From Candidatus Woesearchaeota archaeon (GTDB lineage: Archaea > Nanobdellota > Nanobdellia > Pacearchaeales > GW2011-AR1): a stretch of DNA of 64,000 nt. The DNA lies in contig CAZOEF010000003.1 of NCBI GenBank assembly GCA_964578845.1, positions 5,009 to 69,008 of the forward strand, written 5' to 3'. Made by a program: the position numbers and the translations under genes. The notes under the pieces were generated by a model, which saw only the letters and a list, made by a program, of their open reading frames with translations, did not search any database and was not told the origin of the DNA. Positions 1-64,000 of this stretch are shown here, one piece after another. Each line of letters begins with the position of its first letter. The stretch's first letter is position 1.

Positions 1-107
1 TAAAGCTTGTGAAAGAGTTTTCTTTATCTCTTTTTAATAATCCATTAATAAAGCAGCTCTTTAGGTAGGTTATGAACGCAAAGGAGGATAAAATGAAATC
101 GCAATCT

Positions 108-123
108 GCGCCCTTCGGGGCGC
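108..123 (-). terminator. GC hairpin GCGCCC-TTCG-GGGCGC downstream of the surface-protein gene
   Basis: A perfect 6-bp GC stem with a TTCG loop is read directly at 108..123. It lies about 50 nt past the minus-strand stop at 171, in otherwise AT-rich DNA. Confidence 0.35.
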
Positions 124-170
124 TCATATTCCATAGAGGAGACAAGCCGCCACCCTTAGAATATCTTGGT

Positions 171-1640
171 TTACCTGTTTCTCCTGAATTTCACAAAGTA
201 TAAGACTATCCCTGCAGCTATTATCAAAACAATTACTATCCAAAGCCAAATCATCCTTCCAGATTTACCTTCTGAGTCATTTATTTCACCAGTGCCCGTA
301 GGGTCCTGCTGCTCCACATCTGTTGTTTCAACCGCCTCATGAATAGCATTCATTGTAAGATCTGCCTTGTTACCAATTATTGAATTCAACGTGACACTAA
401 GATCATAATAATTATCGCCTGAAATCTCAAACCTTCTTGTCTCCCCGACATCAAGTGTAACTTCCTGAGGATTTGATGAAACCTCGACTGTCACGCTGGA
501 GTCTCCAATGCTCTTTACACCGACATGGTGAATCTCTCCTGAGATTAATAATCTGGCCCTTTCATTGTTGCTTAATTGCTTATTCAGGCTGATTAATTCT
601 TCACTATCCTCAACATAGGTATTTACCCAAGGATTTACTTCTCCTATTAGTCCCCCTCCGCTGCTACAATCGTCGGTAGAGAATGATTCAGAAGCGCTTG
701 CTGAATTTCCTGCATCATCTGTTGCAGTTGCAGTGAGAGTATATGAGTTGCCGCAGCTTAGGTCTGAGACAGTATTCCCTGATACACTCCCTTCAGAGCT
801 TGATAAGCTGCAAGTGACGCTCGAAGTTGCATCACTGCATGAAGTGCTTACTGTTATGGAAGACCTTGTAGAGCTATCCTCGCTTAAGGAAGCGCTTGGA
901 TCAGTATTGTCAAATGTCACGCTGATCCTTGCAGTATTATTTAAGTTTCCTCCGGTATCATTTGCATAGATAGTGATATTATAGTTCCCGTCTGCAAAGT
1001 CTGTTGTGTCAAGTGTTGCATTCCAGTGATCTCCAGAAGGGTTTGTTGCAGTGATTATATCCTGGCTCCCGCTGCTATTTGTTACATTGAACAAGACTTC
1101 ATCTATTGTCCCTGCGTCTGTAATGCTGGCATTGAGGATTATTGTTCCTGCATTGCTGCTTCCATCTGTTGGAGATATAAAGCTCGCGCCCGGATTCCCA
1201 AGATCGTCTATTGTGACACTAAGGTTTGATTGCTGTGTCCCTGTAGCATTAACTGTCAACACAGTAAGATTATAAGTTCCAGGAGTTGAAGCTGTCAGAT
1301 TGAAAAAGAAATGGTTTTCTGTAGAATTCATCACAAGGCCGTCATTGGTCCAGCTTAGGACAGTGCTTGAACTAGTAAATGTATGCGCTCCAGCGTCAGT
1401 ACCATTTGTACCCGAACTAAAAGTAAAGCTTGAAGGGAAAGTTATATTGACTTGAGTAATATTTGCAGCTACACCTGTATCAGTATTAAAAACTGAAACA
1501 TTATAGAGGCTAGAAACATCTTCATCAAAGTTAAAAGTAGTCCCTCCGCCTGAAGTGGTTATTGTATGCGCTGCAAAAGCAAATCCAGCAAGCATAACTA
1601 TTGACAATAAATAGAATAATGGTCTCACTCCTCTTTTCAT
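171..1640 (-). CDS. Secreted cell-surface protein with Ig-like repeats and a C-terminal membrane anchor (S-layer/adhesin-like)
   Basis: The track ORF is 171..1694. The likely true start is the ATG at 1640 (MKRGVRPLFYLLSIVMLAGFAFA, signal-like). The protein is S/T/N-rich with many N-x-S/T sequons. Its C-terminal helix WLWIVIVLIIAAGIVLYFV is followed by the basic tail KFRRNR. Confidence 0.6.
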   Translation of the reverse strand: MKRGVRPLFYLLSIVMLAGFAFAAHTITTSGGGTTFNFDEDVSSLYNVSVFNTDTGVAANITQVNITFPSSFTFSSGTNGTDAGAHTFTSSSTVLSWTNDGLVMNSTENHFFFNLTASTPGTYNLTVLTVNATGTQQSNLSVTIDDLGNPGASFISPTDGSSNAGTIILNASITDAGTIDEVLFNVTNSSGSQDIITATNPSGDHWNATLDTTDFADGNYNITIYANDTGGNLNNTARISVTFDNTDPSASLSEDSSTRSSITVSTSCSDATSSVTCSLSSSEGSVSGNTVSDLSCGNSYTLTATATDDAGNSASASESFSTDDCSSGGGLIGEVNPWVNTYVEDSEELISLNKQLSNNERARLLISGEIHHVGVKSIGDSSVTVEVSSNPQEVTLDVGETRRFEISGDNYYDLSVTLNSIIGNKADLTMNAIHEAVETTDVEQQDPTGTGEINDSEGKSGRMIWLWIVIVLIIAAGIVLYFVKFRRNR

Positions 1641-1690
1641 GATTATTTCATAAAAGGCAGATGTTATATAAACTTTACCTCTAACCAGGG

Positions 1691-2251
1691 TCAACTTTCC
1701 TCAACAAACATTGCCCTCTCACCTGAGACAAGTATCTCTGCAATCTGTGAATCCAGATTCACTAGTGCTCCTTTCTTATACGGCCCTACAACTTCGCCAG
1801 CCATATCTACAAACTGTTCAACATCTTCCTTCACTAATATCATTTTATTAGAGCTCTCTGTTGGTTTTCCGTTAAGTAATTCATGGAGGGATTTATCTGC
1901 ATCGTCAACCGCTCTAACAAGCCTCTCAAATAAGTCCTGCTCAAAACTCAGCATATCTACAAAATCTTTCTTCATTATCCCTGTCTCAGCAGCGACAAAC
2001 ACTAAATTAAGTATTTTCTTCTTTCTTCTAAGCATTAATTCTTTGAAAATAGCCATCGCGTTCTCATATTGCTTTTTCTCCCTGAGAAGATCATCCACTA
2101 TCCCCACGCCATCCATAGAATTAGACAGGCTTTTTCTTTTCTCAGTCATATATTCAGAAAATTGCTTGACAAAATCCTTAGGAAGGTTCTGGAGTTGCTC
2201 ACCATATTTCTCTTTTCTAAGGAATTCATAAAGGTCATTATAATTAATCAT
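1691..2251 (-). CDS. GINS complex subunit (Gins51-like), DNA replication
   Basis: The 186-aa length, the N-terminal LYEFLRKEK..LQNLPKDF pattern and the C-terminal GPYKKGALVNLDSQIAEILVSGERA resemble archaeal Gins51 as I remember it. This was not verified by a search. Confidence 0.6.
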   Translation of the reverse strand: MINYNDLYEFLRKEKYGEQLQNLPKDFVKQFSEYMTEKRKSLSNSMDGVGIVDDLLREKKQYENAMAIFKELMLRRKKKILNLVFVAAETGIMKKDFVDMLSFEQDLFERLVRAVDDADKSLHELLNGKPTESSNKMILVKEDVEQFVDMAGEVVGPYKKGALVNLDSQIAEILVSGERAMFVEES

Positions 2252-31500: not shown

Positions 31501-34500
31501 TAAGCTTCTGCTGATGCTTGAGCTCTTGCCAAGCAAATCTGTTGCATAAGCTGAATAATTATATTCTCCATCAGGTAAACCTGTCAGATTAGCATAGAAT
31601 TGCCAACTGTCTGGATCATATTTAGAGACGCTTGTAGAATAACTCATGCTCACCTCTTCCGGGCTTAATGCCCTATCATAGATATTTACTTCATCAATCA
31701 TACCTTGCCAGGATTCCCCATAATTGGCGTTCAATATACCTATATACATATCAGCCACGCTTTCTCTAGAGATAGTTGTAGCAGTAGAATCAGCAGTGCC
31801 AACAAGCTCCCCGTTATAATAAAATTTCTTCCTTTCTCCGGATGGTAGCGAACCATCAAAAGTGACCGCTAAATGAGTCCATTCATTTGCTGTGACAGCA
31901 ACTCCTGAACTGTCTCTTTCTGTTCCAATATCAAAATATATTTCCCTATCTGTGAACAGGAATATGCTCCAGGCCCTATTGTTTGTTGAATCAACTCTCT
32001 TAGAGGCAATACCTCTTGCAAGCTCATCATTGGCTGTGTCTAGTATCCATGCTTCAAAGGTGAACTGGTCCATATCATCTAAGCTCGCATCATCAGGTAT
32101 TTCTATCCAGTCATTAGTTCCATCAAATCCTACAGCTGAATTATACCTTCCATTTTGCACCCAATTAGCATTTCCGTTTAAAACTCCGTTATTGCCATAT
32201 ATAGAAGAGTCAATAATATTAGTACTATTTTCTCCTAAGATTGTCCTATTATCTAGGTCCATCATAAGGACAAGGCTTTCATTGTATAAAGTGTAATTTG
32301 TATTATTCCATTGCCAGATAAAATCTGCTAAATTAGCCTCAGTCATTGAAATGTTTATTTCAGTATGATTAGCTGTGACTGTAGTTTCATCAGCAGGGGT
32401 AGGTGAGACAAAACTCATTGCAGGGGCAGTTGCATCAACTGAAAACTCTACTTCCTCTGAAGTTCCAGTAAGCCCGAATGTGCTTGTGCAGCTGAAGATT
32501 ACTGTATGCGTCCCATCTGCTACAGTGGGAAGTGCTGAAAAATAAGTTGAATTGGCCATAGTCATAGATACGTTTGATTCTCCATCAAGGCTATAACTGC
32601 AGGAATTGCTAGCCTTATCTACTGAGACTTCAAATGGAACTTGGCTAACTCCGTAAAGGTCTTCTAGAGGAGATATCACAGTAATCACTGGGGGAAGGGT
32701 TTCAGTAGTATTGATAATTACATATCTCACTTCAGTCATGTTAGAGTTTCCTGCAAAATTCTCAGCATAGCCATAATAGCTATACACACCATCAGCTAAA
32801 TTTGTCACATTTGCAAAAAATTGCCATGTTCCGCTATCTTTCTGGAATTCATAACTACTGTGGGCGCTTATCTCATCATCACTCAATGCCCTATCCCATA
32901 TCCTGAATTCGTCCACATTTCCTTCTAAGCCTCCTGAATCCCTAGATCCAATTTCATAATCAGGAGAGATAGCACTTATTGAAGTCTGTGTATCTGTTCC
33001 GTTATAGATATTTTCTCCATTCAGGTATATCCTTGTAGCGCCGTTATCAAAGACAAAAACCCAGTGGTTCCATTCATCAGTAGTAAGGATGTTCTGTACA
33101 GTGTGGCTGTTTCTCCAGTCACCTTCCAAATTCCATCTTAACCTTAAGTTTGATGACCCTGGAATATTGAAACTGTCCCCGAATTCTATCAATACATTGC
33201 CATCAGCCCAAAGCAAGTACTGGTCCTGTGAGAGGGAGCTTTGGTTCACCCATGTAGATATTGTTGCTTTGCTTTGCCCGTTAAGCTTATCAAAGGAAGG
33301 TACAGTCACTCGATCAGTTCCGCCTGAAAAACTAATTCCTCCGTCCTGTTTACCTGCAGAAATTAATGTTGCTCCATTTATTGTTCCATTATTTGTATAT
33401 TGGCTTAAGTCAGAAACTGTGTTAGCGTCTCCAAAATCACTCTCATTATCAAAATTATACGCTAAAACCAAATTTGGTTCAGGGATTAAATTAAGAGGCC
33501 CGCTTCCTAGAATAGGTTGGGTTATGTCTATTAAGTCATTTGTCGATTCATTTCCATAGAATAGACCAAGTTCATTAGGCCCAAAAGTATAATTCTTGCC
33601 ATTGAAATTAAATATGAATCTCTCTAGGCTACTGTCTTCTATAGTTATGTTAATAGGGATATTATTGATTAACCTCATAGTCCCATTAGTTAAGGTCGGA
33701 GGAGTAAAATATATTGAGGGTATTCCTGCTAAATTTATTGTTGTTGAATCACTCTCATCACTGTCATAATCTGATGCTGTAAAGCATCTTAGGTTATTTA
33801 CAGAATCCTGGTTTCCCTGCAGATTAAAAGTAGTCTGTACAGGGGTCGTCCCTATATTCCCTAAATCATGTGGATTCGTCTCTCCTGCTCCTAAAATAAT
33901 GTTTCCCGATGAGCTTATGTTCCGCCAATCTTCTGAAGAAGTATTGCTCTGTACATAGACTTCAACATTCCTGCATATTCCGATGGTGCAACTAGCTTCA
34001 CAAGTAACATTAAATGATTCACCCACTGCAGCTCCAGGATCAACTAAAGGATTGGTTAAGTTGGAGTTTACAAATCCCTCTGTAGTTATATTAATATCCA
34101 CAAATGAGCTGGTAAATCCTTCCCAACCATGAGTTATTGACCTTGCTTGTGTGCTATGGGTATTAAATCCATTGATAACTAATTGGATCCTATCTTGAGA
34201 GCTGAGATAAAAATCAGTTGGAAAGCAGGTTGAGTTTGAGGCAGTTTCTGTCCCGAGATTTGCAGGCTCTCCATTAGGGCCGTCATCTCCAAACTGGCAT
34301 AGAAGGCTAGTAGAGGTTGAATTCATCAGCAACAATTTCCAGGTCAGCTCAATATTTCCGCTTGTTGTAGTGAAGCTGCTTTGCCAATTAACAGTAGTCC
34401 CTGCAGGGATAATAGCTCCATTATTTCCCAGATGGTGTGATGTGGCATTAACCATATGTGCAAATTGCCCTGCAATTATGCTGAAGGCGGCAGTGTTTCC

Positions 34501-54432: not shown

Positions 54433-56130
54433 CTACCAATTGTCCTCATTCCTTCTTCTCAAGAAAAACACTACAATCAGGGCTATGATCAATAATATTA
54501 TTATCGCGATTATCAGGACTGTCAACATAGATATGCTCTGGATGCCAAACTCAAATCTGCCTTGGAATACTTTAACTAAGCTATCTTCCTTCTCGCCATA
54601 ATAGACTATCAAATCTACAAAAGAGTTGTCTTCTAGGTCTTCATCAGTCAATTCCTGTTCTATGAATATATTTCTTTTCTTTCCTGAAGGTATCTGTATA
54701 CTTCCTTCTGAACCTATTGTTGTCGGCTCACCATCTATCAATAGCTCATTCATCTCTACATCTGCCCAGCAGTCAACATCTGCAGTGTTCTTGATATTTA
54801 CAACAAATCCTCCCTTTGGTTTGCTATAAGTGACTTTCTTGACATCTATCTCGCAACTATCCAAAACATTTATTATGCTTATGTCTACATTGCCTTCAAA
54901 CACCCTGTCCATTGAACTAGGGGTATCTCCATAAAGGGTAAAGATATCAACAGATAAGTCATCACCTGACAAGTCTACATCTGAGTAAAGCACTGTCTTA
55001 TAATCATTTGGAGCAATAAAAATAGCATCAGTATCCCCGAATCTGGCCCCTACCCCATTTTCATCCCTCGGAGTAAGAGTTCCTTTGAAATATACTGGCA
55101 CGCTGGACTCGCTCCTATAAGTTATCTCTAAATTAGATGTTGCCCGATTATATTTAGCAGAATAGACTGAAAGATCAAGTACTGGGACAGGCAAGTAGAA
55201 CAGATCAAGTCCCTCGACAGAGGCAATTGGCCCAGTCGGATTCCTGGCCCCCCTAGCAAATTTGACTATCACGCTTAATCCAGTGCTTCTTCTTATATTT
55301 GTAGCGGCGCCAACCAAGTCTGATCCCACTAAGACTCCGACAGTGAACTCAGAGCTTTTCAAATATTCACTTATCTGCTCAGGAACATTTTCCTTTCCAG
55401 TGAAGAGTATAGGGTCAAAGCCGGTCATCAGCCCCTTTTCTATGAATTCCCCATTTGATAATGCTACCTGCTGAGTCGGATTTATCTCAAGATATTTTTC
55501 AACAATATCAATATTGTCCTGGAATCTGTCACCGTTATCTATTATCTCAGGATCATATTGTTCTAATGCTTCAGTGACTTCCCTGTCCACATGTCCGTAA
55601 ATAATGATCTCATTGACATCTCTTCCTTCTAGAATAGATTCTATATCAGCTATATTAGTCCTGTCTGCAAAAAATACCCATGCATCATCGTGGACTGCAT
55701 AAGGTGCGACAGCTATTGCATTATACCCGTAAGTATTCCCGACAATTATGAAATTATTTATTTCTGGAAGGTCATTTATAAGTTCGAGATTTGCATTCTC
55801 AAGAGTCACCTCATCAACATCAGAGAATCCCTGGCTCTCAAGATAGTTAGGATAATTCAGTGTGAATTGCTTGTTTCTTACGCTGATGATCCTTAAGTTA
55901 AGGTCGTGGTTCAATCCTGATGCTAAAATAGGCCCGTGTCTTGTGCTAACCAGAAAATCACTCTGGACTCCTGCAAGATTGCCAAAGTGCACAACTGAAT
56001 AAACATCCCTCCAATCTTCTGAATTTGAGATGAGGTAATCAAAATCCCTCTCCTGTGCAAATGCACTATGCAGGTTAATGGCTATTAATATAAACAGCAG
56101 AAAAAAGTAAACACTCCTCTTAATCCTCAT
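54433..56130 (-). CDS. Secreted protein (565 aa) with a C-terminal TM anchor, possibly with cell-wall-binding-repeat-2-like modules
   Basis: The signal is VYFFLLFILIAINLHSAFA. The C-terminal helix LTVLIIAIIILLIIALIVVFFL is followed by RRRNEDNW. The repeat assignment is tentative. Confidence 0.6.
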   Translation of the reverse strand: MRIKRSVYFFLLFILIAINLHSAFAQERDFDYLISNSEDWRDVYSVVHFGNLAGVQSDFLVSTRHGPILASGLNHDLNLRIISVRNKQFTLNYPNYLESQGFSDVDEVTLENANLELINDLPEINNFIIVGNTYGYNAIAVAPYAVHDDAWVFFADRTNIADIESILEGRDVNEIIIYGHVDREVTEALEQYDPEIIDNGDRFQDNIDIVEKYLEINPTQQVALSNGEFIEKGLMTGFDPILFTGKENVPEQISEYLKSSEFTVGVLVGSDLVGAATNIRRSTGLSVIVKFARGARNPTGPIASVEGLDLFYLPVPVLDLSVYSAKYNRATSNLEITYRSESSVPVYFKGTLTPRDENGVGARFGDTDAIFIAPNDYKTVLYSDVDLSGDDLSVDIFTLYGDTPSSMDRVFEGNVDISIINVLDSCEIDVKKVTYSKPKGGFVVNIKNTADVDCWADVEMNELLIDGEPTTIGSEGSIQIPSGKKRNIFIEQELTDEDLEDNSFVDLIVYYGEKEDSLVKVFQGRFEFGIQSISMLTVLIIAIIILLIIALIVVFFLRRRNEDNW

Positions 56131-56208: not shown

Positions 56209-57015
56209 ATGTTCAGGTTATCCCACCTTCTGCTAAATCCCAAAAAAGCGTCAAGGCACCCCTTAGAGATGCTGCTAGTTGGATTTTTCTATGCCTCATT
56301 ATCATTGCTGCTAAGCCTTTGGATATTTCCAGGTCATGCCTCATTGACAATGGTATTCCTGACAATTATCTCCTGTTTATATGTTGTTCAGGGGGCAATA
56401 ATTAAGGAAGCGGAAAAAGAGAGAAAATTGGATTCTGAGAAGATGCTGATAAAACATCATGCTAGAACCCTAATGTTCCTGCTTTTCTTGTTTATTGGGT
56501 TCTTATTGGCATTTATGTTCTGGACAATTGTTCTGCCAGGCTCAATAGTATCAGCAGTATTTAATATGCAGATGTCAGAAATAAATAATATAAGGGCAGT
56601 TACAGGAAATGCTATAAGCAATAATGGATTCAATTTGATTCTTGAGAATAATATGAAGGTTTTATGTATATCCCTGCTGTTCGCAATATTCTACGGTGCT
56701 GGTGCGATTTTCATCCTTGCATGGAACGCCAGTGTCATGGGGTTTGTTATGGGGGAGCTTGTGAGAAACACTCTGGGCTTTGCATCGCTGCCACTGGTCT
56801 TTGCAAGATATTTTCTGCACGGCATTCCTGAGATGATTGCATATTTCATTGCAGCTTTATCAGGAGGGATAATATTCATCACTATACTAAGGTCAGATTT
56901 CAGCAAAGAAAAACTGAAAAGGACAGCGATAGACATATTTTCATTAATAACTCTCTCTTTGCTTATATTAATAATTGCAGCTTTCCTGGAAGCATATGTT
57001 TCCCCATTGATTTAA
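56209..57015 (+). CDS. SpoIIM/DUF95-family integral membrane protein
   Basis: It has multiple TM helices. The block FLHGIPEMIAYFIAALSGG is typical of the family. Confidence 0.6.
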   Translation: MFRLSHLLLNPKKASRHPLEMLLVGFFYASLSLLLSLWIFPGHASLTMVFLTIISCLYVVQGAIIKEAEKERKLDSEKMLIKHHARTLMFLLFLFIGFLLAFMFWTIVLPGSIVSAVFNMQMSEINNIRAVTGNAISNNGFNLILENNMKVLCISLLFAIFYGAGAIFILAWNASVMGFVMGELVRNTLGFASLPLVFARYFLHGIPEMIAYFIAALSGGIIFITILRSDFSKEKLKRTAIDIFSLITLSLLILIIAAFLEAYVSPLI

Positions 57016-60000
57016 GCTTGAGTCCAGTTTACATCCTGTGCAACTGATACTTCGTATCCCTTTTCTATAATGATTGGGAAATTATTTCCTATGAATCCTG
57101 GTCCGAAAGGATTTGGTATTAATCCCTGGGATGTTTGCATCTGCGCATTCCAATTAGTAATCGCATCAGCACCTGTTATATTTTCTATTAGAGAAGTTGC
57201 ATTAACTAGTTTTGTTCCTGCATATAATGATATCCAGTTCTTGCCAAAATCTGTTGAATTTTTTATCAGTATTATATCCATCGGACGATTAGTTATTCCT
57301 GTCAAGCTCCAATTATAAGGGCTATCAGTATCACTGTCAACATTTAGCTCGTAACCTTTCCCGCTTTCTAGGTTAAAGTTGCAATTGGTGTCTGTACATG
57401 ATGGGAAAGAAGGACAGGAGAACTCATTGCAAGTTACTCTTTCCTGGCGCGTGGCATTCCAGGTAGTCAATGCAGTTATGTTGATTATTTCATTCAGGGA
57501 CTGGCTTGCAGTTGTCATGTATGAGGGTCTTGTCGGGAATCCAATCCAGTTCCTTGTGTTGCCATTATGCATAAAAGTATATACATGCGCCCCGAAATAA
57601 TCTTCACTCGCATTCTGGCCAGTAGGATTTACTGAATCAACCCTGTAGAATCTTCTGGTATGTCCTGCAAAATTTGTATCAGTATAATTTAGCATAGAGG
57701 TTTCATTTAACAAAATAAATTCTCCAGGGATTCTATCTGCGTAATATATTTTGTAGGATAATGCGTTGCTTACCTCATCCCACGAAAGGGTGATATTCCC
57801 CGTCCCATCGTTGCTGCTCTGGGTTATATTTGACAAAATTGTTTGGTTAGGAAAAAAGAACGAAGCAAAAGTGAAATTAGTGCTATTCGTCCCGATATTT
57901 CCAGCTCCGTCTGTGCATTCTATATTCCAGATATAAAATCCTTCCTCTTCAACATCAACTCCGGAGAAATTTCCAGTGTCAATTGGATTGCTTGAACTTT
58001 GGTTAAGGTGCCATCCATTGCTCCAATTTCCATAGAGCGAGCAATTGCTTATATATAATAAATCACTAACACTATAATTGAATTCTGGAATTGAAAGATT
58101 TGAAAAATTAGTATGGTCTATGGGATAAAGCAGGTTGACTTGTGGAGGAGTGTAATCAGTTGTAAATGTATTTTCCAGGACTGAATCTCCACAGTTTCCA
58201 GCATTATCACATGCAAGGCAGTTCCATATGAAATTACCTTCTCCGGGTGCTGCGCTAAAAGAATAATTCACATTATTTATTCCGCTTGTATTAGTCTGGT
58301 TGATATGTTCTCCCTGTGAACTCCAGTTCCCGAACAAGCTTACGTTTGAAATAGAGTTATCATCCTCTACGAAACAGCTGAAATCCACATTAGTGAGTGA
58401 AGTGTTTATAAAACTAGCAGGTGAATTTAATGTGACTATCGGTGCTATTATGTCAGTCCTTACTTCTGCCTCTATTTGGTCAGTAGCTATATCTACAAAT
58501 CTATTAGAAGGATTTCCACTTGATGGCGCAGCAGAAAACGATCTTGCAAGTATAATTATCCAGCCTGAGCTGTTTACAATATCCGAAAAGCTATTTGTAT
58601 AGGCCAGGTTTCTTGTCTGTTCTGCATTATCGGTATTGTAACTTGCAAATTGGCTATAACCTCCTGCGCTGTTGTTGAATACTGAGAGGATAAATCCATC
58701 TGTTCCAGACCCCGTATTCCCAAATCCTCTCCAGGTAAGATTTATCATAGTCACCTCATTTAATGGCTCGTCTATCTTGATCTCAAATCTTGAAAATGCG
58801 AATGATCCTTCTCCAGCCTGAAAATCCTGGAAAATATCATCATCATCAACTAAGTCATTATAAGGATCATTTATCTCTGTAATGGTTGTCTCGCTAGTGC
58901 CTTCAAATGCTGTATTGAAAGTTAAGTTGTTATAATTATAAATTCTGCTTCCGAACCCTACACCTAATGAAGCGCTTCCCTGGTTATCGCTGGAGGAATC
59001 ATAGAATATTTCAGGATAATCCGTAATGTTGCAAGAATAAGAGAATGAACCTGCAAAAAACGTCCTTATAGGTATTGAAGCTAGTCCATTGCTGTCAGTC
59101 AAGTTGCTTCCTATTAATCCAGTGCTATTATAAAATGAGACATTATAATCAGCTAGAGGTTCTGATGTGGCGCTATCAGTCACTTCACAATAGAAGGTCG
59201 CGTTTGCCATTAAGTCTACTCCTGAAGGATCCATGAATGAATTGCTTATTTCTGATAATCCCCATAGCTCGAAATTTCTTGCAGCAGTCGCATTTTCATT
59301 GCCTGAAGTATCATTTGCATAGATTTTCCATGAGATAACACTACCAGGGATAATAGTCGTATTCGACCAATTGAAGCTGCTGATTGAATCTGTCCCGCTC
59401 AGGCCTTGAGGTGAATTATATAACCCGCTCCAATTTATCCAGGTTCCTGTCTGATTTGTGGAAAGCCATGCGCTTTCCATTCCTGTAACGTCTAGCCATC
59501 TTGCTGATAAATTTACTTCCTGCCCTCTATATACCTTGTTAATTTTTGAGTTATTGATAGTCTGGTTAAGCTCAGTATAAGACGGAGGGACTATATCAAT
59601 GAGAGTTATATTTCTTGTCGGAGTAGATCCAAAATTCCCTAAAATATCATAAACACTGACATTGTAATAATACAATTTATTATTATTTTGCAGCCCTTGC
59701 CAGGTTATTGTACTGACAGGGTTTGTATATGTTGTCCTATTTTCTAAACCAGTGCTGTTGTAAAGCTCATAAGTGATATTGGCGAAATTGCTTTCAGTTA
59801 TAGAAACATTCACAAAAATAGAGTTTGCAGCCATACTTGCTCCGTCGGGTTCTGTGCCTGTGATGAATGATACTATAGGATTTGTATTATCTAATAAGAT
59901 AGATCTCGTCTCACTTGAATTTGAGTTGCTAGAATAGTCAAATGCTGTTGCATTAAAAAAATACTCTCCGTCCTGGAGATTTGAAAAATTAAAGAAAGCA

Positions 60001-63000
60001 GGGGAATTAAAAGATGCTGATGTATTGATCAGGCTGGTCGAATTATAGAGATTTACTGTGATATTCATCAGGTTTATATCGTTTGCAGTCACATTTAATA
60101 AAATATAATCTTGAGAGGCATTAGCTCCTGAGTCTAATGTTGGCTGGACAAATTGTATTCCATATGGGGCAGCAGTGTCCAAAACCAAGGTTCTTGTTTG
60201 AGTGAGATTTGTATTGTTAGCTATGTCCATGACACTTACATTAAAGCTATATTGCCCGTCCGGAAGGCTTGTCCAGTTTATTGTCCTTCTTGAATCTGTG
60301 TAAATAGTTTCATTTACTAAAGAGGTTGAGTTGAATAGCCTGAAGATTAGACTGGCGAAATTTGCTTCATCCACTGAAGCATTGGCAAAAATATTGCTCT
60401 TTGATAAGTTTGCCCCACTTATTTCTGTCCCTTGTCCATATTCTATAAGTGGAAATATTGTATCTATTGTGAATCCTCTTGTTTTGTTCCCCACATTTCC
60501 TGTAGAGTCATTCGCATAGAAATTAACTAAATACTCTCCGTCTACTATTGAAGAGTTTGTTGCGTTCCAGTTTATATTGTCTGTACTGGACATTGAGATA
60601 TTATTGATCCCGTTATCTAGTGTATACCATGCACTGCTGCCATTTTCATCAAGAGTTATGTCAAAGGATAAAAAGCTTTCATTTATTCCTGCTCCTTCAA
60701 ACTCAGGATTATTGATTGTTATAACAGGAGGCTGCAAGTCAAGAACTGTCAAGGTCAAAGTGCGCGTCTCTGTTGAATTTGAATTTCCCAAGATGTCTGT
60801 GACGCTGACATTATATGAATAATCTATATTTGACTGGCTTAATCCTGTCCAGTTAAATTCTGTGACTGGCGTGTTGAAAATTGTCCTGTTTTCTAAACCA
60901 GTGCTGTTGTAAAGCTCATAAGTGATATTGGCGAAATTTGCCTCGCTTATTGTTACTTTGACAGGAATATAATTCTCTCCAAAAAAGCTCCCATTAGGTC
61001 TTGTTGGAGGAGTAACGAAACTTAATGAAGGAGCTATACTGTCTACAAAAAAAGTCACTTTTTCAGAATCGTTTAAATTTCCTGCAGAGTCATTCGCATA
61101 AACATTGAGAGTGGTCACGCCTTGCAGAGCAGAATATATTATGTCCTGACAACTATTAAGAGTATTATTGGTAATTCCCCCATCATCAGAATACCAGCAT
61201 GATTCTAAGCCCGAATCTACAGCTGAAAAATTAAGCAGCAAGGAGTTTGTCGTGTAATTGATAGGCTGAGGGCTAAATATGATCACACTGGGGTTGATTG
61301 TATCGATTCCAAATACTCTGGAGGAAGTTCCAGTATTTCCTGCAGAGTCATTCGCATAGAAATTAACTAAATACTCTCCGTCTGCTATTGAAGAGTTTGT
61401 TGCGTTCCAGTTTATATTGTCTGTACTGGACATTGAGATATTATTGATCCCGTTATCTAGTGTATACCATGCTAAATCTGCAGGCTCGCTCAGGGAAATA
61501 TTGAAATTGATCAGGGAAGATGAAAAATTATCAGCATTAGGTGAGTTAATATTTATGACTGGATCTGTTGAATCAATAGTTATTGTCCTGTTTTCAGAAA
61601 CATTGCAATTATTAGAGATATCGCAAGCCTGGATTGCCCAGACAAAAGTCCCGTCTGGAAGTTCTTGGTTAAACTCATATACACTATCCAAGCCAGAGCT
61701 GTTTGTAAGATTTCTTGAGAATGATCCTGTCCAGTTTCCAAATAAAGAGACGTTTGCAATACCGGAATTATCTGAGATGCTTGCATTAAATATTACATTT
61801 TGATCGTTTGTTATGAAGTCATTAGCTGGTGAATCCAGTGTTATGGAAGGCGGCTCAAAATCCGATGAGGCAAATGCAAATATCACATCAATATAAGGAG
61901 GAATATGGCTGACATTATCAAAACTGACTGTCAATAGGTGTGTATGCTGGTCATCTCCTGCGTTTGCGCCTGCACCAGTCCTTCTGGATTCTGTACTGGA
62001 TGGTGGGCCTGTATTGAATTGTGCATTAGGATGGGAATGAGTATTTGCCCCTCCTGTTCCACCATATGAATCATCTCCCTGCAAAAACCTCTGGAAAAAT
62101 GGCTGGCCTGATGAAGAGACCACATCCCACCCTTGAGGAGGTGTTGAATTGAACATCGCTATTAAGCCTGTTCCTGCCCATGATGAATACGGCAATGAAA
62201 TATCAGAAAGTGCGACTGCAAAAGTAACATTTATGAAAGGAGGCCTGTTGTCAACACTTGCTGTGCTTCCTGTTCCTGCAGGGTGTGTGTGCCCATCACT
62301 CGCTACTAAAGTTGTACTTCCCCCGTTTCTAGTTACTGATGTTCCGCTGGATGAATCTAATCCTGCTGAAATAATATGGCTGTGAGTATTGCTGCCTCCA
62401 TTTGTATTTGAAGTTGCATTAGCTAAAGCAAACCTGCCATCTAGAGCTGAATATCTCTGCCAATTCTCAGGCAAATCAGTTGTATTGAATATAGCTATTG
62501 CTCCCTGAGGAATAATCGAAGGGATATCTGTTCCATTATATCTAATGACTTTCAAAGTGCTGAAAGCTGGATAATTTGATTCTGTGCTAACGCTTGGCGA
62601 GGTTAATGTAGAGTGTGTGTGGAATTCAGCAGAAGATACCTGATTTTGAGAATCAACTGCTTGCCCTGCTCCTGATCCTATTAACACTAATGACATTGAA
62701 TGTGTATGAGTAGTTGTCCCGCCTGTTCCTCCATAAGTCCCTGCCCCTCTTACAAACCTTCCAAAGAAATCATCTCCTGTATTGCAGGAAACACACTCCC
62801 ACCCGTTAGGAGCATCATCTGTTCCGTTATAAAATAAATAAAGTTCGCCATTATATACTGCATCGTTTGCCATCTGCCATTGCCTTCTTTCCTCAAAATG
62901 GCCTATTCTTAAGGGTCCTAAAAAGAATAAATCAGGGCTCTGATCAGGAGCGTCAAATTCATACAAGAATTGATAAGTTTCTCCTGCTGTGAATTCAGCT

Positions 63001-64000
63001 TTCCAGGTCAAGATTTTTGTGTCCCCTTCAATCCTTGTCTGGGCCCCCTCGATATCAAATAAAGCCGGCACTTTTTCCTCAACAATCCCTGAATAATCCT
63101 CATTTGCTTTTATAGTAATATTCATTTCATACGGCTGGGCTGGATAAAGCCTTGTCGGCCCGGTTCTTTTAATATCGAAAGGCAAGTTATTCCTGACCTC
63201 AAAACTATCCAAAATATTTCTCATTCCATTATTTGTGTATGCAGTCAGGTTCATCAAATATATCCCTGTTTGTCCTGTTTCATATTCAGTATAATAATCA
63301 GGCAAATTAGTTACTCCGCTGATTCTGCAGCTATCAGAAATAGTTATACTCCCCTCTTCAGTGGACAATACTGTTTTCCTGCCATTTGGAGAAGTTATCT
63401 CAAGAATGACATCTGCATTGCATACCATTCTTCCAAGATCATCAAGTATAGCCATTCCAATAAAAGCTTCTTCATTCTCTAAGTAAATAGATTTGTCTGT
63501 ATTTATCGCTAATACGCCCCATAAAAAATCATTCTCTATCGTAGTAGTATCTCCATTTCCATCCAAGAATATCGTCTTCAGAAAGTATTTGCCAGGTTTT
63601 AATGATTTCACCCTATTTATCTTCAAGGAATTATTTTCATATATTGTTTCTAAAGGCATGACTTCTCCATTTGAATTCCTTATCTCTGAACTCACATAGG
63701 TCAATTCTGGCAAAGACTCATTAGAATTAGAAAATAATTCTTTAATCCTGTCAACAAGGCTAGATTCTGTTTCAATATCTTTCCTCGCCAGGTTAAATGT
63801 AGGATCTTCACTCAATGAGAAGCTTGGCTTTCCAGGCTTTAATATTAGATCAATATTTATTAAATCTGAGTCATTAAGAATCTCCATAGCTGTACTATTC
63901 AATGTAATATTATTTGGTTGAATGTTTTGTTCAATAGCTTGGCCAACAAAAAAGGAATACTCTTTCCTTCCCTTGCTGTTCTCAACAATTAAATTATATT
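57012..64000 (-). CDS. Giant surface protein, 5' end outside the window (more than 2296 aa), with 3 tail-collar-like repeats, many Ig-like repeats and an FN3-like module
   Basis: The track start at 63902 is a TTG. My own translation of 63903..63998 in the same frame has no stop (…YNLIVENSKGRKEYSFFVGQAIEQNIQPNNIT), so the ORF is open to the window edge. The tail-collar-like repeats lie at 61866..62849. Confidence 0.85.
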   Translation of the reverse strand, partial: YNLIVENSKGRKEYSFFVGQAIEQNIQPNNITLNSTAMEILNDSDLINIDLILKPGKPSFSLSEDPTFNLARKDIETESSLVDRIKELFSNSNESLPELTYVSSEIRNSNGEVMPLETIYENNSLKINRVKSLKPGKYFLKTIFLDGNGDTTTIENDFLWGVLAINTDKSIYLENEEAFIGMAILDDLGRMVCNADVILEITSPNGRKTVLSTEEGSITISDSCRISGVTNLPDYYTEYETGQTGIYLMNLTAYTNNGMRNILDSFEVRNNLPFDIKRTGPTRLYPAQPYEMNITIKANEDYSGIVEEKVPALFDIEGAQTRIEGDTKILTWKAEFTAGETYQFLYEFDAPDQSPDLFFLGPLRIGHFEERRQWQMANDAVYNGELYLFYNGTDDAPNGWECVSCNTGDDFFGRFVRGAGTYGGTGGTTTHTHSMSLVLIGSGAGQAVDSQNQVSSAEFHTHSTLTSPSVSTESNYPAFSTLKVIRYNGTDIPSIIPQGAIAIFNTTDLPENWQRYSALDGRFALANATSNTNGGSNTHSHIISAGLDSSSGTSVTRNGGSTTLVASDGHTHPAGTGSTASVDNRPPFINVTFAVALSDISLPYSSWAGTGLIAMFNSTPPQGWDVVSSSGQPFFQRFLQGDDSYGGTGGANTHSHPNAQFNTGPPSSTESRRTGAGANAGDDQHTHLLTVSFDNVSHIPPYIDVIFAFASSDFEPPSITLDSPANDFITNDQNVIFNASISDNSGIANVSLFGNWTGSFSRNLTNSSGLDSVYEFNQELPDGTFVWAIQACDISNNCNVSENRTITIDSTDPVININSPNADNFSSSLINFNISLSEPADLAWYTLDNGINNISMSSTDNINWNATNSSIADGEYLVNFYANDSAGNTGTSSRVFGIDTINPSVIIFSPQPINYTTNSLLLNFSAVDSGLESCWYSDDGGITNNTLNSCQDIIYSALQGVTTLNVYANDSAGNLNDSEKVTFFVDSIAPSLSFVTPPTRPNGSFFGENYIPVKVTISEANFANITYELYNSTGLENRTIFNTPVTEFNWTGLSQSNIDYSYNVSVTDILGNSNSTETRTLTLTVLDLQPPVITINNPEFEGAGINESFLSFDITLDENGSSAWYTLDNGINNISMSSTDNINWNATNSSIVDGEYLVNFYANDSTGNVGNKTRGFTIDTIFPLIEYGQGTEISGANLSKSNIFANASVDEANFASLIFRLFNSTSLVNETIYTDSRRTINWTSLPDGQYSFNVSVMDIANNTNLTQTRTLVLDTAAPYGIQFVQPTLDSGANASQDYILLNVTANDINLMNITVNLYNSTSLINTSASFNSPAFFNFSNLQDGEYFFNATAFDYSSNSNSSETRSILLDNTNPIVSFITGTEPDGASMAANSIFVNVSITESNFANITYELYNSTGLENRTTYTNPVSTITWQGLQNNNKLYYYNVSVYDILGNFGSTPTRNITLIDIVPPSYTELNQTINNSKINKVYRGQEVNLSARWLDVTGMESAWLSTNQTGTWINWSGLYNSPQGLSGTDSISSFNWSNTTIIPGSVISWKIYANDTSGNENATAARNFELWGLSEISNSFMDPSGVDLMANATFYCEVTDSATSEPLADYNVSFYNSTGLIGSNLTDSNGLASIPIRTFFAGSFSYSCNITDYPEIFYDSSSDNQGSASLGVGFGSRIYNYNNLTFNTAFEGTSETTITEINDPYNDLVDDDDIFQDFQAGEGSFAFSRFEIKIDEPLNEVTMINLTWRGFGNTGSGTDGFILSVFNNSAGGYSQFASYNTDNAEQTRNLAYTNSFSDIVNSSGWIIILARSFSAAPSSGNPSNRFVDIATDQIEAEVRTDIIAPIVTLNSPASFINTSLTNVDFSCFVEDDNSISNVSLFGNWSSQGEHINQTNTSGINNVNYSFSAAPGEGNFIWNCLACDNAGNCGDSVLENTFTTDYTPPQVNLLYPIDHTNFSNLSIPEFNYSVSDLLYISNCSLYGNWSNGWHLNQSSSNPIDTGNFSGVDVEEEGFYIWNIECTDGAGNIGTNSTNFTFASFFFPNQTILSNITQSSNDGTGNITLSWDEVSNALSYKIYYADRIPGEFILLNETSMLNYTDTNFAGHTRRFYRVDSVNPTGQNASEDYFGAHVYTFMHNGNTRNWIGFPTRPSYMTTASQSLNEIINITALTTWNATRQERVTCNEFSCPSFPSCTDTNCNFNLESGKGYELNVDSDTDSPYNWSLTGITNRPMDIILIKNSTDFGKNWISLYAGTKLVNATSLIENITGADAITNWNAQMQTSQGLIPNPFGPGFIGNNFPIIIEKGYEVSVAQDVNWTQA
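59732..59789. repeat. 58-bp intragenic repeat, copy A (partner at 60881..60938)
   Basis: The copies have one mismatch at an offset of 1149 bp (383 aa). They encode NFANITYELYNSTGLENRT. Confidence 0.9.
60497..60632. repeat. 136-bp near-identical intragenic repeat, copy A
   Basis: It matches 61337..61472 with 2 mismatches at an offset of 840 bp (280 aa). It encodes AWYTLDNGINNISMSSTDNINWNATNSSI(A/V)DGEYLVNFYANDS. Confidence 0.9.
61337..61472. repeat. 136-bp near-identical intragenic repeat, copy B
   Basis: It is compared with copy A above. A third, partial copy (tttcctgcagagtcattcgcata) is at about 61077..61100. Confidence 0.9.

What the first reader, a model, noticed from the sequence alone, without database searches (positions are those of the whole stretch)
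61866..62849. Three tandem phage-tail-collar-like repeats inside one giant archaeal surface protein (possible single-chain pseudo-trimer)
Seen: three consecutive units of about 100 aa share one pattern. The pattern is F(N/Y)..(T/D)..P.GW, then GRF..G/QRFLQG, then GG(T/S)(G/N)...THTHS/THSH, then a second HTH, then (P/Y)P(F/Y/A)(I/F)..(V/L).F/I. Examples are FGRFVRGAGTYGGTGGTTTHTHS, DGRFALANATSNTNGGSNTHSH and FQRFLQGDDSYGGTGGANTHSHP.

Established knowledge: this resembles the Phage Tail Collar domain of tail fibres and MdpB-like proteins. In fibres that domain assembles as a homotrimer.

Inference: three copies in a single chain could fold as an intramolecular pseudo-trimer. That would be a fibre-tip-like receptor-binding head grafted onto a cellular adhesin.
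Basis: partly seen in the sequence, partly recalled or inferred. Interest (0 to 1): 0.6.

Follow-up and report, generated by a model that had tools for sequence, protein, structure and literature searches.

The report
Single-chain triple phage-fibre-tip module
A giant sugar-coated surface protein of a tiny symbiotic-type (DPANN) archaeon carries three fused, diverged copies of the histidine-rich tip unit that phage tail fibres normally build from three separate chains. It is probably a one-chain imitation of a fibre-tip trimer used to grip other cells, and the Pfam, NCBIfam and PHROGs libraries have no model for it.

Summary
Window 61845-62858 (minus strand) encodes three contiguous repeats of about 110 aa. 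They are 25-34% identical (Smith-Waterman z 9-18), and each carries two HxH motifs. They lie in a 2417-aa, N-terminally anchored surface protein.

Pfam Collar (PF07484) does not match, and neither does any NCBIfam or PHROGs model. Remote homology to phage fibre tips is still supported:
- Profile-profile comparison with 71 Collar/MdpB proteins gives P 4e-6 to 1e-4, above all shuffles.
- Viral contigs hold tail-fibre proteins that end in one copy of this unit.
- A model of one repeat alone finds only phage fibre or baseplate chains in the PDB (Pa223 gp60, C24, T4 gp10). These matches are weak (E 0.1-1).
- The whole module matches phage phiAsp2 Pas28 and Pas29 (E about 1e-15). Each of these also holds three repeats.

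The unit of three is real. Of the 150 best homologues plus the query, 125 have three copies and 21 have six. Repeats group by position in a tree. The 12 histidines are 87-99% conserved. AlphaFold2 folds the triplet as one compact body (pLDDT 86, pTM 0.81).

Threefold symmetry, metal binding and adhesive function remain inferred. I rate this a new variant of a known kind. This scan has met the same module in other genomes.

The parts
57012..64000 (-). Giant surface-protein gene. It is open at the window edge. The full product is 2417 aa, and its N-terminal hydrophobic anchor or signal (MNDFSKKGIVKFSIVGIFAFALFILTAFVFIS...) lies just beyond base 64000.
   Evidence: It has 114 N-x-S/T sequons. Ig-like Big_13/Big_3_4 domains lie downstream of the module.
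62517..62858 (-). Repeat 1 of the triple module (position class r1).
   Evidence: In trees it groups with the first repeats of other proteins.
62178..62513 (-). Repeat 2 (class r2).
   Evidence: It sits inside a starred clade of 126 second repeats.
61845..62177 (-). Repeat 3 (class r3).
   Evidence: Folded alone it has pLDDT 78 and only 3 strands.
62700..62708 (-). HxH motif 1 of repeat 1 (HTH).
62613..62621 (-). HxH motif 2 of repeat 1 (HTH).
62376..62384 (-). HxH motif 1 of repeat 2 (HSH).
62283..62291 (-). HxH motif 2 of repeat 2 (HTH).
62031..62039 (-). HxH motif 1 of repeat 3 (HSH).
61938..61946 (-). HxH motif 2 of repeat 3 (HTH).
61299..61499 (-). Best-scoring Ig-like (Big_13) domain of the array that follows the module.
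   Evidence: PF19077, E 8e-24 for the whole protein, 5 stretches; best stretch aa 834-900 of the 2328-aa frame.

Best explanation
Residues 470-807 of a 2417-aa surface protein form one extracellular module built from three diverged tandem copies of a unit of about 110 aa. The protein is N-terminally anchored, has many N-glycosylation sequons, and belongs to a DPANN-type archaeon with a genome of about 1 Mb.

Each unit has, in order:
- a collar-like start (G-x-I-x-x-F ... P-x-G-W);
- an R-F-x-x-G strand;
- a GGTGG loop that runs into HxH motif 1;
- a hypervariable loop of about 25-30 aa;
- HxH motif 2;
- a closing N-x-P-P-Y-h-x-h-x-F strand.

The unit is homologous to the C-terminal tip unit of homotrimeric phage tail fibres, and more distantly to the Pfam Collar / MdpB domain. 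It lacks the central loop of that domain.

In this protein one chain supplies all three protomers. The three copies pack into one compact knob. The two sets of three HxH motifs would form two six-histidine metal sites (Fe2+ or Zn2+) on the pseudo-threefold axis, as in fibre trimers. The three variable loops are free to diverge and would form the ligand-binding surface. The likely role is recognition of, or adhesion to, another cell's surface.

Shown here: the repeats; the fixed unit of three and its position-specific orthology; histidine conservation; kinship with phage tail proteins; a compact, confident AlphaFold2 model.

Inferred: the threefold geometry, metal binding, the ligand and the adhesive role.
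For: Repeats.

Family size and copy number: a profile of the three repeats finds 1399 protein clusters at E<=1e-3. Of the 150 best plus the query, 125 have exactly 3 contiguous copies, 21 have 6 (two sets of three), one has 2, two have 4 and none has 5.

Position-specific orthology: in a tree of 480 repeats, the position label needs 18 changes against 226.6 when labels are shuffled. A single clade of all first repeats is not rejected (p-AU 0.82).

Histidines: all four His columns are 87-99% conserved in each repeat class. All 12 module histidines sit in the six HxH motifs, and 11 of them are invariant or nearly invariant across homologues.

Structure prediction: the triplet model has pLDDT 86.1 and pTM 0.81, with equivalent strands in each repeat. 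Repeat 3 folded alone drops to pLDDT 61-78 across the HxH region, against mostly 97-99 in the triplet (79-80 in the loop between the two motifs), and keeps only 3 strands. This suggests that the HxH segments are ordered by contacts between repeats.

Phage kinship:
- Foldseek against BFVD finds Pas28 and Pas29 of Actinoplanes phage phiAsp2 (E 4.9e-16 and 1.1e-15, TMq 0.53 and 0.51). Each has three repeats by my HMM (E 1e-18 and 8e-22) and lies in the tail module.
- IMG/VR tail-fibre proteins end in a single copy. L027 is 485 aa, its C-terminal copy scores 112 bits, and its N-terminal part hits PHROG tail-fibre and minor-tail families.
- Bridging viral ORFs hit both my repeat HMM and PF07484 or PHROG 'tail collar fiber'.
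- hhalign against Collar/MdpB gives P 3.8e-6 and beats all controls.
- The single-repeat model has only 8 PDB matches, and all are phage fibre or baseplate proteins: 9nxk Pa223 gp60, 6ov6 C24, 2fkk T4 gp10 C-terminal domain.
- Pa223 gp60 is a homotrimer whose tip resembles the T4 gp37 tip (doi 10.1101/2025.06.11.659172). C24 is a putative receptor-binding long-tail-fibre tip (PMC11821841, citing Pellizza 2020).

Surface location: N-terminal hydrophobic anchor, 114 sequons and Ig-like arrays.
Against: - PF07484, NCBIfam and PHROGs give no hit on the module.
- Foldseek of the whole module against PDB chains finds nothing (best E 7e-3, TM 0.06).
- The single-repeat PDB matches are individually not significant (E 0.11-0.96).
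- The sequence link to PDB is fragile. 9qgo appears at E 0.0016 with a 3-sequence profile but is lost with deeper profiles.
- I had no access to model coordinates, so threefold symmetry and His-His geometry were not measured.
- Loss of an HxH motif is not coordinated among the three repeats. Most defective sites have lost only one of three motifs, so that test gave no support for shared metal sites.
- The 150 listed homologues are ranked by summed score, which favours multi-copy proteins. Cellular single-copy forms could be hidden lower in the list.
- The module is internal (aa 470-807), with about 1600 aa after it, so it is not at a fibre-like tip.
- None of 150 other genomes sampled from the phylum has the module.
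Confidence: 0.65

Rival explanations
1. Beads on a string. The three repeats are independent, self-folding metal-binding domains. Each would use its own two HxH motifs (four histidines). They would be strung in tandem like the Ig domains that follow, with no obligate three-part assembly.
For: - Tandem domain arrays are the rule in this protein.
- Each repeat has its own pair of HxH motifs.
- HxH loss is not coordinated between repeats.
- The first and last strands of a single repeat still pair when it is modelled alone.
Against: - Copy number is 3 or 6 in 146 of the 151 proteins examined and never 5. Bead arrays normally vary freely in number.
- Repeats are orthologous by position across proteins.
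- pTM 0.81 for the whole triplet means the relative positions of the repeats are confidently predicted.
- The HxH region loses confidence and strands when one repeat is modelled alone.
- The solved relatives are trimers (doi 10.1101/2025.06.11.659172).
Confidence: 0.15
2. Not phage-related. The unit is an unrelated histidine-rich beta fold, and its resemblance to Collar and fibre tips is motif-level convergence (P-x-GW, HxH, PPY).
For: - No curated HMM of any collar or fibre family matches.
- Foldseek PDB E-values are above 0.1.
- The local hhalign score rests mainly on the first 23 columns.
Against: - hhalign is colinear over the whole unit at P 3.8e-6 and exceeds the reversed, column-shuffled and block-shuffled controls.
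- Viral proteins with PHROG tail-fibre N-terminal parts end in a single copy that scores 112 bits with the cellular repeat HMM.
- phiAsp2 tail-module proteins match by both sequence and fold.
- All 8 PDB matches out of 350,542 chains are phage fibre or baseplate proteins.
Confidence: 0.1
3. A metallo-enzyme. The clustered histidines would form a catalytic metal centre, for example a glycan- or peptidoglycan-degrading activity displayed on the cell surface, rather than a structural metal staple in a binding knob.
For: - HxH motifs occur in many metallo-hydrolases (general knowledge).
- Phage receptor-binding proteins are often depolymerases (general knowledge).
- No function has been measured for any member.
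Against: - No enzyme family matches in Pfam or NCBIfam.
- Apart from histidine, the conserved residues are Gly, Pro, Trp and Tyr, with no conserved acidic or nucleophilic residue.
- The His pattern is the same in all three repeats, as expected for symmetric structural sites.
- In the phage literature read here, HxH motifs are credited with an iron-binding, stabilising role (PMC11821841 on the Sf14 tail needle, compared with Mu gp45 and P2 gpV). From general knowledge, T4 gp12 and gp37 are similar.
Confidence: 0.07

Closest known systems
Pas28 and Pas29 of Actinoplanes phage phiAsp2 (NC_005885). Pas29 is annotated 'possible receptor recognizing protein; contains HXHY motifs'.
   Same: Both are single chains with three tandem HxH-bearing repeats that my cellular repeat HMM recognises (E 1e-18 and 8e-22). 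The whole-module fold matches (Foldseek E about 1e-15, TMq 0.5). Both lie in a host-recognition context, directly after the large tail protein.
   Different: The phage repeats are longer (about 145 aa) and carry four HxH motifs each instead of two. Comparable viral triples form a separate clade from all cellular repeats (95% SH-aLRT). tblastn with the archaeal module finds no phage record. No structure or function has been determined for Pas28 or Pas29.
C-terminal tips of homotrimeric phage fibres: Pa223 gp60 (9nxk), Bizionia prophage C24 (6ov6), T4 gp10 C-terminal domain (2fkk). By general knowledge, also T4 gp12 and gp37 with their HxH metal sites.
   Same: These are the only PDB fold matches of a single-repeat model. 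They share the collar-like start, an HxH motif and the closing P-Y strand (alignments). IMG/VR tail-fibre proteins end in one copy of exactly this unit.
   Different: Those tips are built from three identical chains, each contributing one copy. Here three diverged copies lie in one chain, inside a cellular protein, and not at its C-terminus. The fold matches are weak (E 0.1-1, TMq 0.38-0.51).
Pfam Collar (PF07484) / MdpB 'microcystin-dependent protein' family, with PF21939 Gp10_C.
   Same: Colinear profile-profile match over the whole unit (P 3.8e-6). Shared motifs: G-x-I..F..P-x-GW, RF-x-RG and the C-terminal P-x-Y/N strand.
   Different: There is no HMM hit at E<=10. The Collar loop of about 35 residues (CDG...LF..G..F-x-LPDL) is replaced by about 8-10 residues. 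HxH motifs are only weakly conserved in the MdpB-type alignment. Collar proteins have one copy per chain.

Membership tests
Pfam Collar (PF07484) | HMM match at or above the gathering score (24 bits) | tested here: not met
   There is no hit at E<=10 on the module or on single repeats and none at E<=1 on the whole protein. The whole-genome scan finds only an unrelated locus on contig C5. None of 52 homologues hits at E<=1.
Pfam Collar (PF07484) | N-terminal motif G-x-I-x-x-F ... P-x-G-W followed by R-G-R-F/RF-x-RG | tested here: met
   hhalign aligns these motifs column for column with 71 PF07484 proteins. The score is above all controls.
Pfam Collar (PF07484) | Central loop C-D-G ... L-F ... 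G ... F-x-L-P-D-L between GW and RGRF | tested here: not met
   The loop is absent. About 8-10 residues replace about 35 (alignment). Bridging viral ORFs (L019, L025, L045) retain it.
Homotrimeric HxH fibre tips (T4 gp10/gp12/gp37 type, C24, Pa223 gp60) | Fold similarity of the unit to a protomer of the trimer | tested here: inconclusive
   The single-repeat model finds only such proteins in the PDB, but at E 0.11-0.96 and TMq 0.38-0.51. The model itself has pLDDT 78.
Homotrimeric HxH fibre tips (T4 gp10/gp12/gp37 type, C24, Pa223 gp60) | Conserved HxH motifs | tested here: met
   There are two per repeat and six in all. Each His column is 87-99% conserved in 480 repeats.
Homotrimeric HxH fibre tips (T4 gp10/gp12/gp37 type, C24, Pa223 gp60) | Three units around a threefold axis, with six-His metal sites on the axis | tested here: inconclusive
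   The compact model (pTM 0.81) and the 3-or-6 copy rule fit this. HxH losses are not coordinated between repeats.
Homotrimeric HxH fibre tips (T4 gp10/gp12/gp37 type, C24, Pa223 gp60) | Bound Fe2+/Zn2+ | not testable with these tools
   This needs ICP-MS or anomalous scattering on purified protein.
Homotrimeric HxH fibre tips (T4 gp10/gp12/gp37 type, C24, Pa223 gp60) | Assembly from three separate identical chains | tested here: not met
   All three units lie in one ORF, 25-34% identical to each other.
Unannotated single-chain triple-HxH module (cellular giant surface proteins; phiAsp2 Pas28/29) | Three contiguous repeats of about 105-145 aa with HxH motifs, recognised reciprocally by the repeat profile | tested here: met
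   See for the 1399 clusters and the 3-or-6 copy counts. See for the grouping of the window's repeats with the r1, r2 and r3 classes, and for Pas28 and Pas29.

The most novel reading that the evidence does not exclude
The module is an obligate single-chain pseudo-trimer of a phage receptor-binding fibre tip, stapled by two six-histidine metal sites. Fusing three protomers into one chain broke the symmetry, so the three binding loops could diverge into a heterotrivalent recognition head. Ultra-small episymbionts (DPANN archaea such as this Woesearchaeota-like organism, and CPR bacteria) share this device with phages and use it on giant surface proteins to recognise host cells. Viral contigs seem to show all three stages: one gene (homotrimer), three adjacent paralogous genes (a possible heterotrimer) and the fused chain.
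Probability: 0.4. Interest if true: 0.75.

Novelty: new variant of a known kind. Interest (0 to 1): 0.6.

Why it matters
If the reading is right, a fold that phages can only assemble from three chains has been written into a single chain. It is used by at least 1399 protein clusters, including giant surface proteins of DPANN archaea and CPR bacteria. How these organisms recognise and attach to their hosts is largely unknown.

A one-chain, metal-stapled recognition knob would be:
- a concrete candidate for the host-recognition part of these adhesins;
- a natural example of symmetry breaking by gene fusion in a fibre fold;
- a monomeric scaffold that is much easier to express and study than trimeric phage fibres;
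- a domain family missing from Pfam, NCBIfam and PHROGs, whose addition would annotate many 'hypothetical' giant proteins.

Tried and rejected
- Direct family scans of the module (Pfam, NCBIfam, PHROGs) found nothing relevant.
- Foldseek of the whole module against PDB chains gave only noise (TM about 0.06). This is expected, because each PDB chain is one protomer.
- Deeper sequence profiles against PDB lost the 9qgo hit that the 3-sequence profile had given. Only 6ov6 remained, at E 0.28. I therefore do not lean on 9qgo.
- The search for related loci in reference genomes failed, both with the alignment and with the single protein.
- tblastn of the module against cultured phages found no match.
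- A scan of 150 genomes of the same phylum found no other carrier of the module, and no classic Collar domain either.
- I tested for coordinated loss of HxH motifs across the three repeats, as shared metal sites might predict. It was not seen: most defective sites lack only one motif.
- I tried to map viral repeats and viral single genes onto the cellular classes r1, r2 and r3. There was no consistent mapping and margins were small.
- The tree suggested that a second cellular subfamily triplicated independently. The AU test does not reject one clade of all first repeats (p 0.82), so I dropped this idea.
- One homologue hits Pfam YmaF (PF12788, E 5e-7). I did not pursue this; it may simply reflect HxH-rich sequence.
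- Literature searches found no description of a single-chain triple collar or fibre-tip module.
Full report
**1. The observation**

The finding lies on the minus strand, inside a giant ORF that runs from 57012 past the window edge. In the assembly the frame is 2421 codons, and the deposited product has 2417 aa. The product starts MNDFSKKGIVKFSIVGIFAFALFILTAFVFIS, a hydrophobic signal or anchor.

My boundaries are 62517-62858, 62178-62513 and 61845-62177.

Pairwise identity is 25-34% (BLASTP E 4e-9 to 6e-15). Smith-Waterman scores are 9-18 standard deviations above 500 shuffles.

The repeat region has exactly six HxH motifs, two per repeat, and they hold all 12 of its histidines.

**2. Host protein and organism**

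The genome holding the window is 983 kb in 6 contigs and is estimated 88.7% complete. Named homologues of the protein come from Candidatus Woesearchaeota (two), Candidatus Paceibacterota, an 'Actinobacteria' MAG and a Dehalococcoidales MAG. A DPANN-type archaeon is therefore the likely source, as earlier notes of this scan also say.

The protein has 114 N-x-S/T sequons. Ig-like Big_13 and Big_3_4 domains follow the module. It is a surface protein, and the module occupies aa 470-807.

**3. Direct family tests fail**

- Pfam gives no Collar (PF07484) hit on the protein, the module or any single repeat, even at E<=10.
- A whole-genome PF07484 scan finds only a different locus on contig C5.
- None of 52 homologues hits Collar at E<=1.
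- NCBIfam and PHROGs have nothing for the module.
- Homologues carry no precomputed Pfam domain over the module.

**4. The unit of three**

A profile of the three repeats, searched against 1.84 billion representative proteins, finds 1399 proteins at E<=1e-3, of which 180 are at E<=1e-30.

I re-scanned the 150 best plus the query. Of these, 125 have exactly three contiguous copies and 21 have six copies as two sets of three. One has two copies (a 264-aa protein), two have four, and one each has seven and eight. None has five. The list is ranked by summed score, which favours multi-copy proteins. Even so, two-, four- and five-copy proteins would have scored high enough to appear.

In a tree of 480 repeats, first repeats group with first repeats, second with second and third with third. 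The position label needs 18 changes against 226.6 when labels are shuffled. An AU test does not reject a single clade of all first repeats (p 0.82). The triplication is therefore old, and each position has been kept as a distinct, orthologous part.

All four histidine columns are 87-99% conserved in every position class. The stretch between the two HxH motifs is the most variable part of the unit, at 3.0-3.8 bits of column entropy.

**5. Structure prediction**

With a 52-sequence alignment, AlphaFold2 gives the 387-aa segment a mean pLDDT of 86.1 and a pTM of 0.81. Only the 32 residues before the first repeat are disordered. Each repeat shows the same order of six or seven strands. A pTM of 0.81 over three repeats means their mutual arrangement is confidently predicted, which argues against flexible beads.

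Repeat 3 modelled alone, with a 53-sequence repeat alignment, falls to pLDDT 78 and pTM 0.52. It keeps only the first, second and last strands. Confidence around the HxH motifs drops from mostly 97-99 (79-80 in the variable loop between them) to 61-78. This fits a core in which the HxH segments are ordered by the other two repeats.

I could not obtain coordinates. The pseudo-threefold axis and the histidine geometry are therefore inferred, not measured.

**6. Kinship with phage fibre tips**

(a) Foldseek of the whole module against predicted viral structures gives Pas28 and Pas29 of Actinoplanes phage phiAsp2 at E 4.9e-16 and 1.1e-15 (TMq 0.53 and 0.51). The next hit is a tail fibre of Aeromonas phage MJG at E 2.8e-4. 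Pas28 and Pas29 lie directly after the large tail protein Pas27. Pas29 is annotated as a possible receptor-recognising protein with HXHY motifs. My cellular repeat HMM finds three tandem repeats in each, at E 1.4e-18 and 8.2e-22.

(b) A motif scan of IMG/VR (GGTGGxxTHTH, back-translated) gave 57 viral loci. Their ORFs fall into three kinds:
- Triple-repeat proteins.
- Proteins with a single copy at the extreme C-terminus. L027 and L052 (485 aa) carry a C-terminal copy that scores 112 bits; other examples are L011 (1281 aa), L012 and L029.
- Loci with two or three adjacent small genes, each with one copy: L016/L018 (191-197 aa each) and L019 (137-140 aa each).

The N-terminal and central parts of the L027 protein hit PHROG tail-spike, minor-tail and tail-fibre families at E 4e-10 to 2e-6. 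A bona fide phage tail protein therefore ends in one copy of this very unit.

(c) The viral ORFs L029 and L019 are bridging forms. They match my repeat HMM (E 4e-15 and 4e-7 to 6e-4). They also match PF07484 just under threshold (E 5e-5 to 0.02, 15-23.7 bits), and two of the three L019 genes match PHROG 'tail collar fiber protein' (E 1e-9 and 3e-7). They still carry the CDG...PDL loop that the archaeal repeats lack.

(d) hhalign of 480 repeats against 71 PF07484 / 'microcystin-dependent protein' sequences (obtained) gives P 3.8e-6 in global mode and 1.1e-4 in local mode. The match is colinear from the first to the last strand. The local score of 31.5 compares with 10.2 for the reversed alignment, 9.7 +/- 1.9 for column shuffles and 20.6 +/- 1.4 for block shuffles.

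(e) Foldseek of the single-repeat model against 350,542 PDB chains returns only eight matches, and all are phage fibre or baseplate proteins:
- Pa223 gp60 (9nxk): E 0.11, probability 0.85, TMq 0.45.
- C24 of a Bizionia prophage (6ov6): E 0.22, TMq 0.51.
- T4 gp10 C-terminal domain (2fkk): E 0.96.
- The other five are two further 6ov6 chains, the fitted T4 gp10 trimer (2fl8), a chain of the T4 baseplate complex (5iv5) and a chain of a Klebsiella phage baseplate cup (9f4b).

Each E-value is weak. The exclusivity of the hit list is what carries weight.

Pa223 gp60 is a homotrimer whose tip resembles the T4 gp37 tip (doi 10.1101/2025.06.11.659172). C24 is described as a putative long-tail-fibre receptor-binding tip (PMC11821841, citing Pellizza et al. 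2020).

From my own knowledge, not tested here: in T4 gp12 and gp37, HxH motifs from three chains coordinate Zn or Fe on the fibre axis.

**7. Interpretation**

The unit is a shortened, distant relative of the collar and fibre-tip unit. The protein carries it three times in one chain, as a fixed and anciently established triplet.

The most economical mechanism is a single-chain pseudo-trimer. The three copies take the places of the three protomers. The two sets of three HxH motifs make two six-histidine metal sites. The three hypervariable loops form an asymmetric binding face.

Because the repeats abut with almost no linker, each unit must begin and end on the same side. This agrees with the pairing of the first and last strands in the single-repeat model. 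The module would then sit as a side knob in the chain rather than at its end.

A role in binding another cell's surface follows from three things: the phage relatives, the surface location, and the episymbiotic lineages that carry the module. It is inference.

**8. What speaks against it, and its limits**

- The curated families do not match.
- Fold matches to solved structures are individually insignificant.
- The sequence link to PDB entry 9qgo (E 0.0016 with three sequences) vanishes with deeper profiles.
- HxH losses are not coordinated among repeats.
- Viral repeats do not map onto the cellular classes r1, r2 and r3.
- Viral triples form their own clade (95% SH-aLRT). It is open whether the viral and cellular triples share one triplication, and in which direction any transfer went.
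- The module is absent from 150 other genomes sampled across the phylum. It is sporadic there rather than a lineage hallmark.

**9. Novelty**

The paper searches I ran found no description of such a module, and Pfam, NCBIfam and PHROGs have no model for it. Earlier notes of this scan describe the same module in about eleven other genomes, mostly CPR bacteria and one Hadarchaeon. I treated these as leads and re-derived the key points here.

For the public record this is a new variant of a known kind: the phage fibre-tip / collar-HxH unit in a fused, triplicated, single-chain form. This window adds a DPANN archaeal member.

Noticed in passing
G000 contig C5:4756-4929 (locus L002, ORF 1..2043 +): The only classic Collar (PF07484, 89 bits) domain in this assembly sits at the C-terminus of a tail-fibre-like ORF with an open frame of 795 aa, on a different contig. 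That stretch has 49.3% GC, against 37.6% for the giant gene's locus. The contig may be a virus or a mis-binned foreign fragment. No other genome of 150 sampled from the phylum has a Collar domain.
   Followed up: partly
IMG/VR loci L016 and L018 (three adjacent genes of 191-197 aa), L019:4053-5314 (three adjacent genes of 137-140 aa), L054, L030, L025: Some viral contigs carry two or three adjacent, tightly packed paralogous small genes. Each encodes one copy of the collar/HxH unit behind a short N-terminal extension. The products hit PHROG tail-fibre or tail-collar-fibre families. This looks like a possible heterotrimeric fibre tip, intermediate between one gene (homotrimer) and the fused triple chain.
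   Followed up: partly
Homologue set A2 (one member): One of the 52 triple-module proteins hits Pfam YmaF (PF12788) at E 4.8e-7. YmaF is an uncharacterised family. I did not check which part of the protein matched or whether YmaF is a related HxH unit.
   Followed up: no
window 28591-36987 (-): The window's second giant ORF (2798 aa) does not carry the triple module. The module occurs only once in the whole assembly.
   Followed up: partly
Homologues P0003, P0012, P0022, P0027, P0038, P0041, P0047, P0050: In many homologues the triple module starts at about residue 35-45, directly after a presumed signal peptide, so it is the N-terminal head of the mature protein. In the window's protein it is preceded by about 440 residues of unannotated sequence.
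   Followed up: no
window 56209-57015 (+) and 54433-56130 (-): The gene that ends at the giant gene's stop (convergent, with 4 bases of overlap) encodes a SpoIIM-family membrane protein (PF01944, E 5e-15). The 565-aa neighbour has no Pfam match.
   Followed up: no
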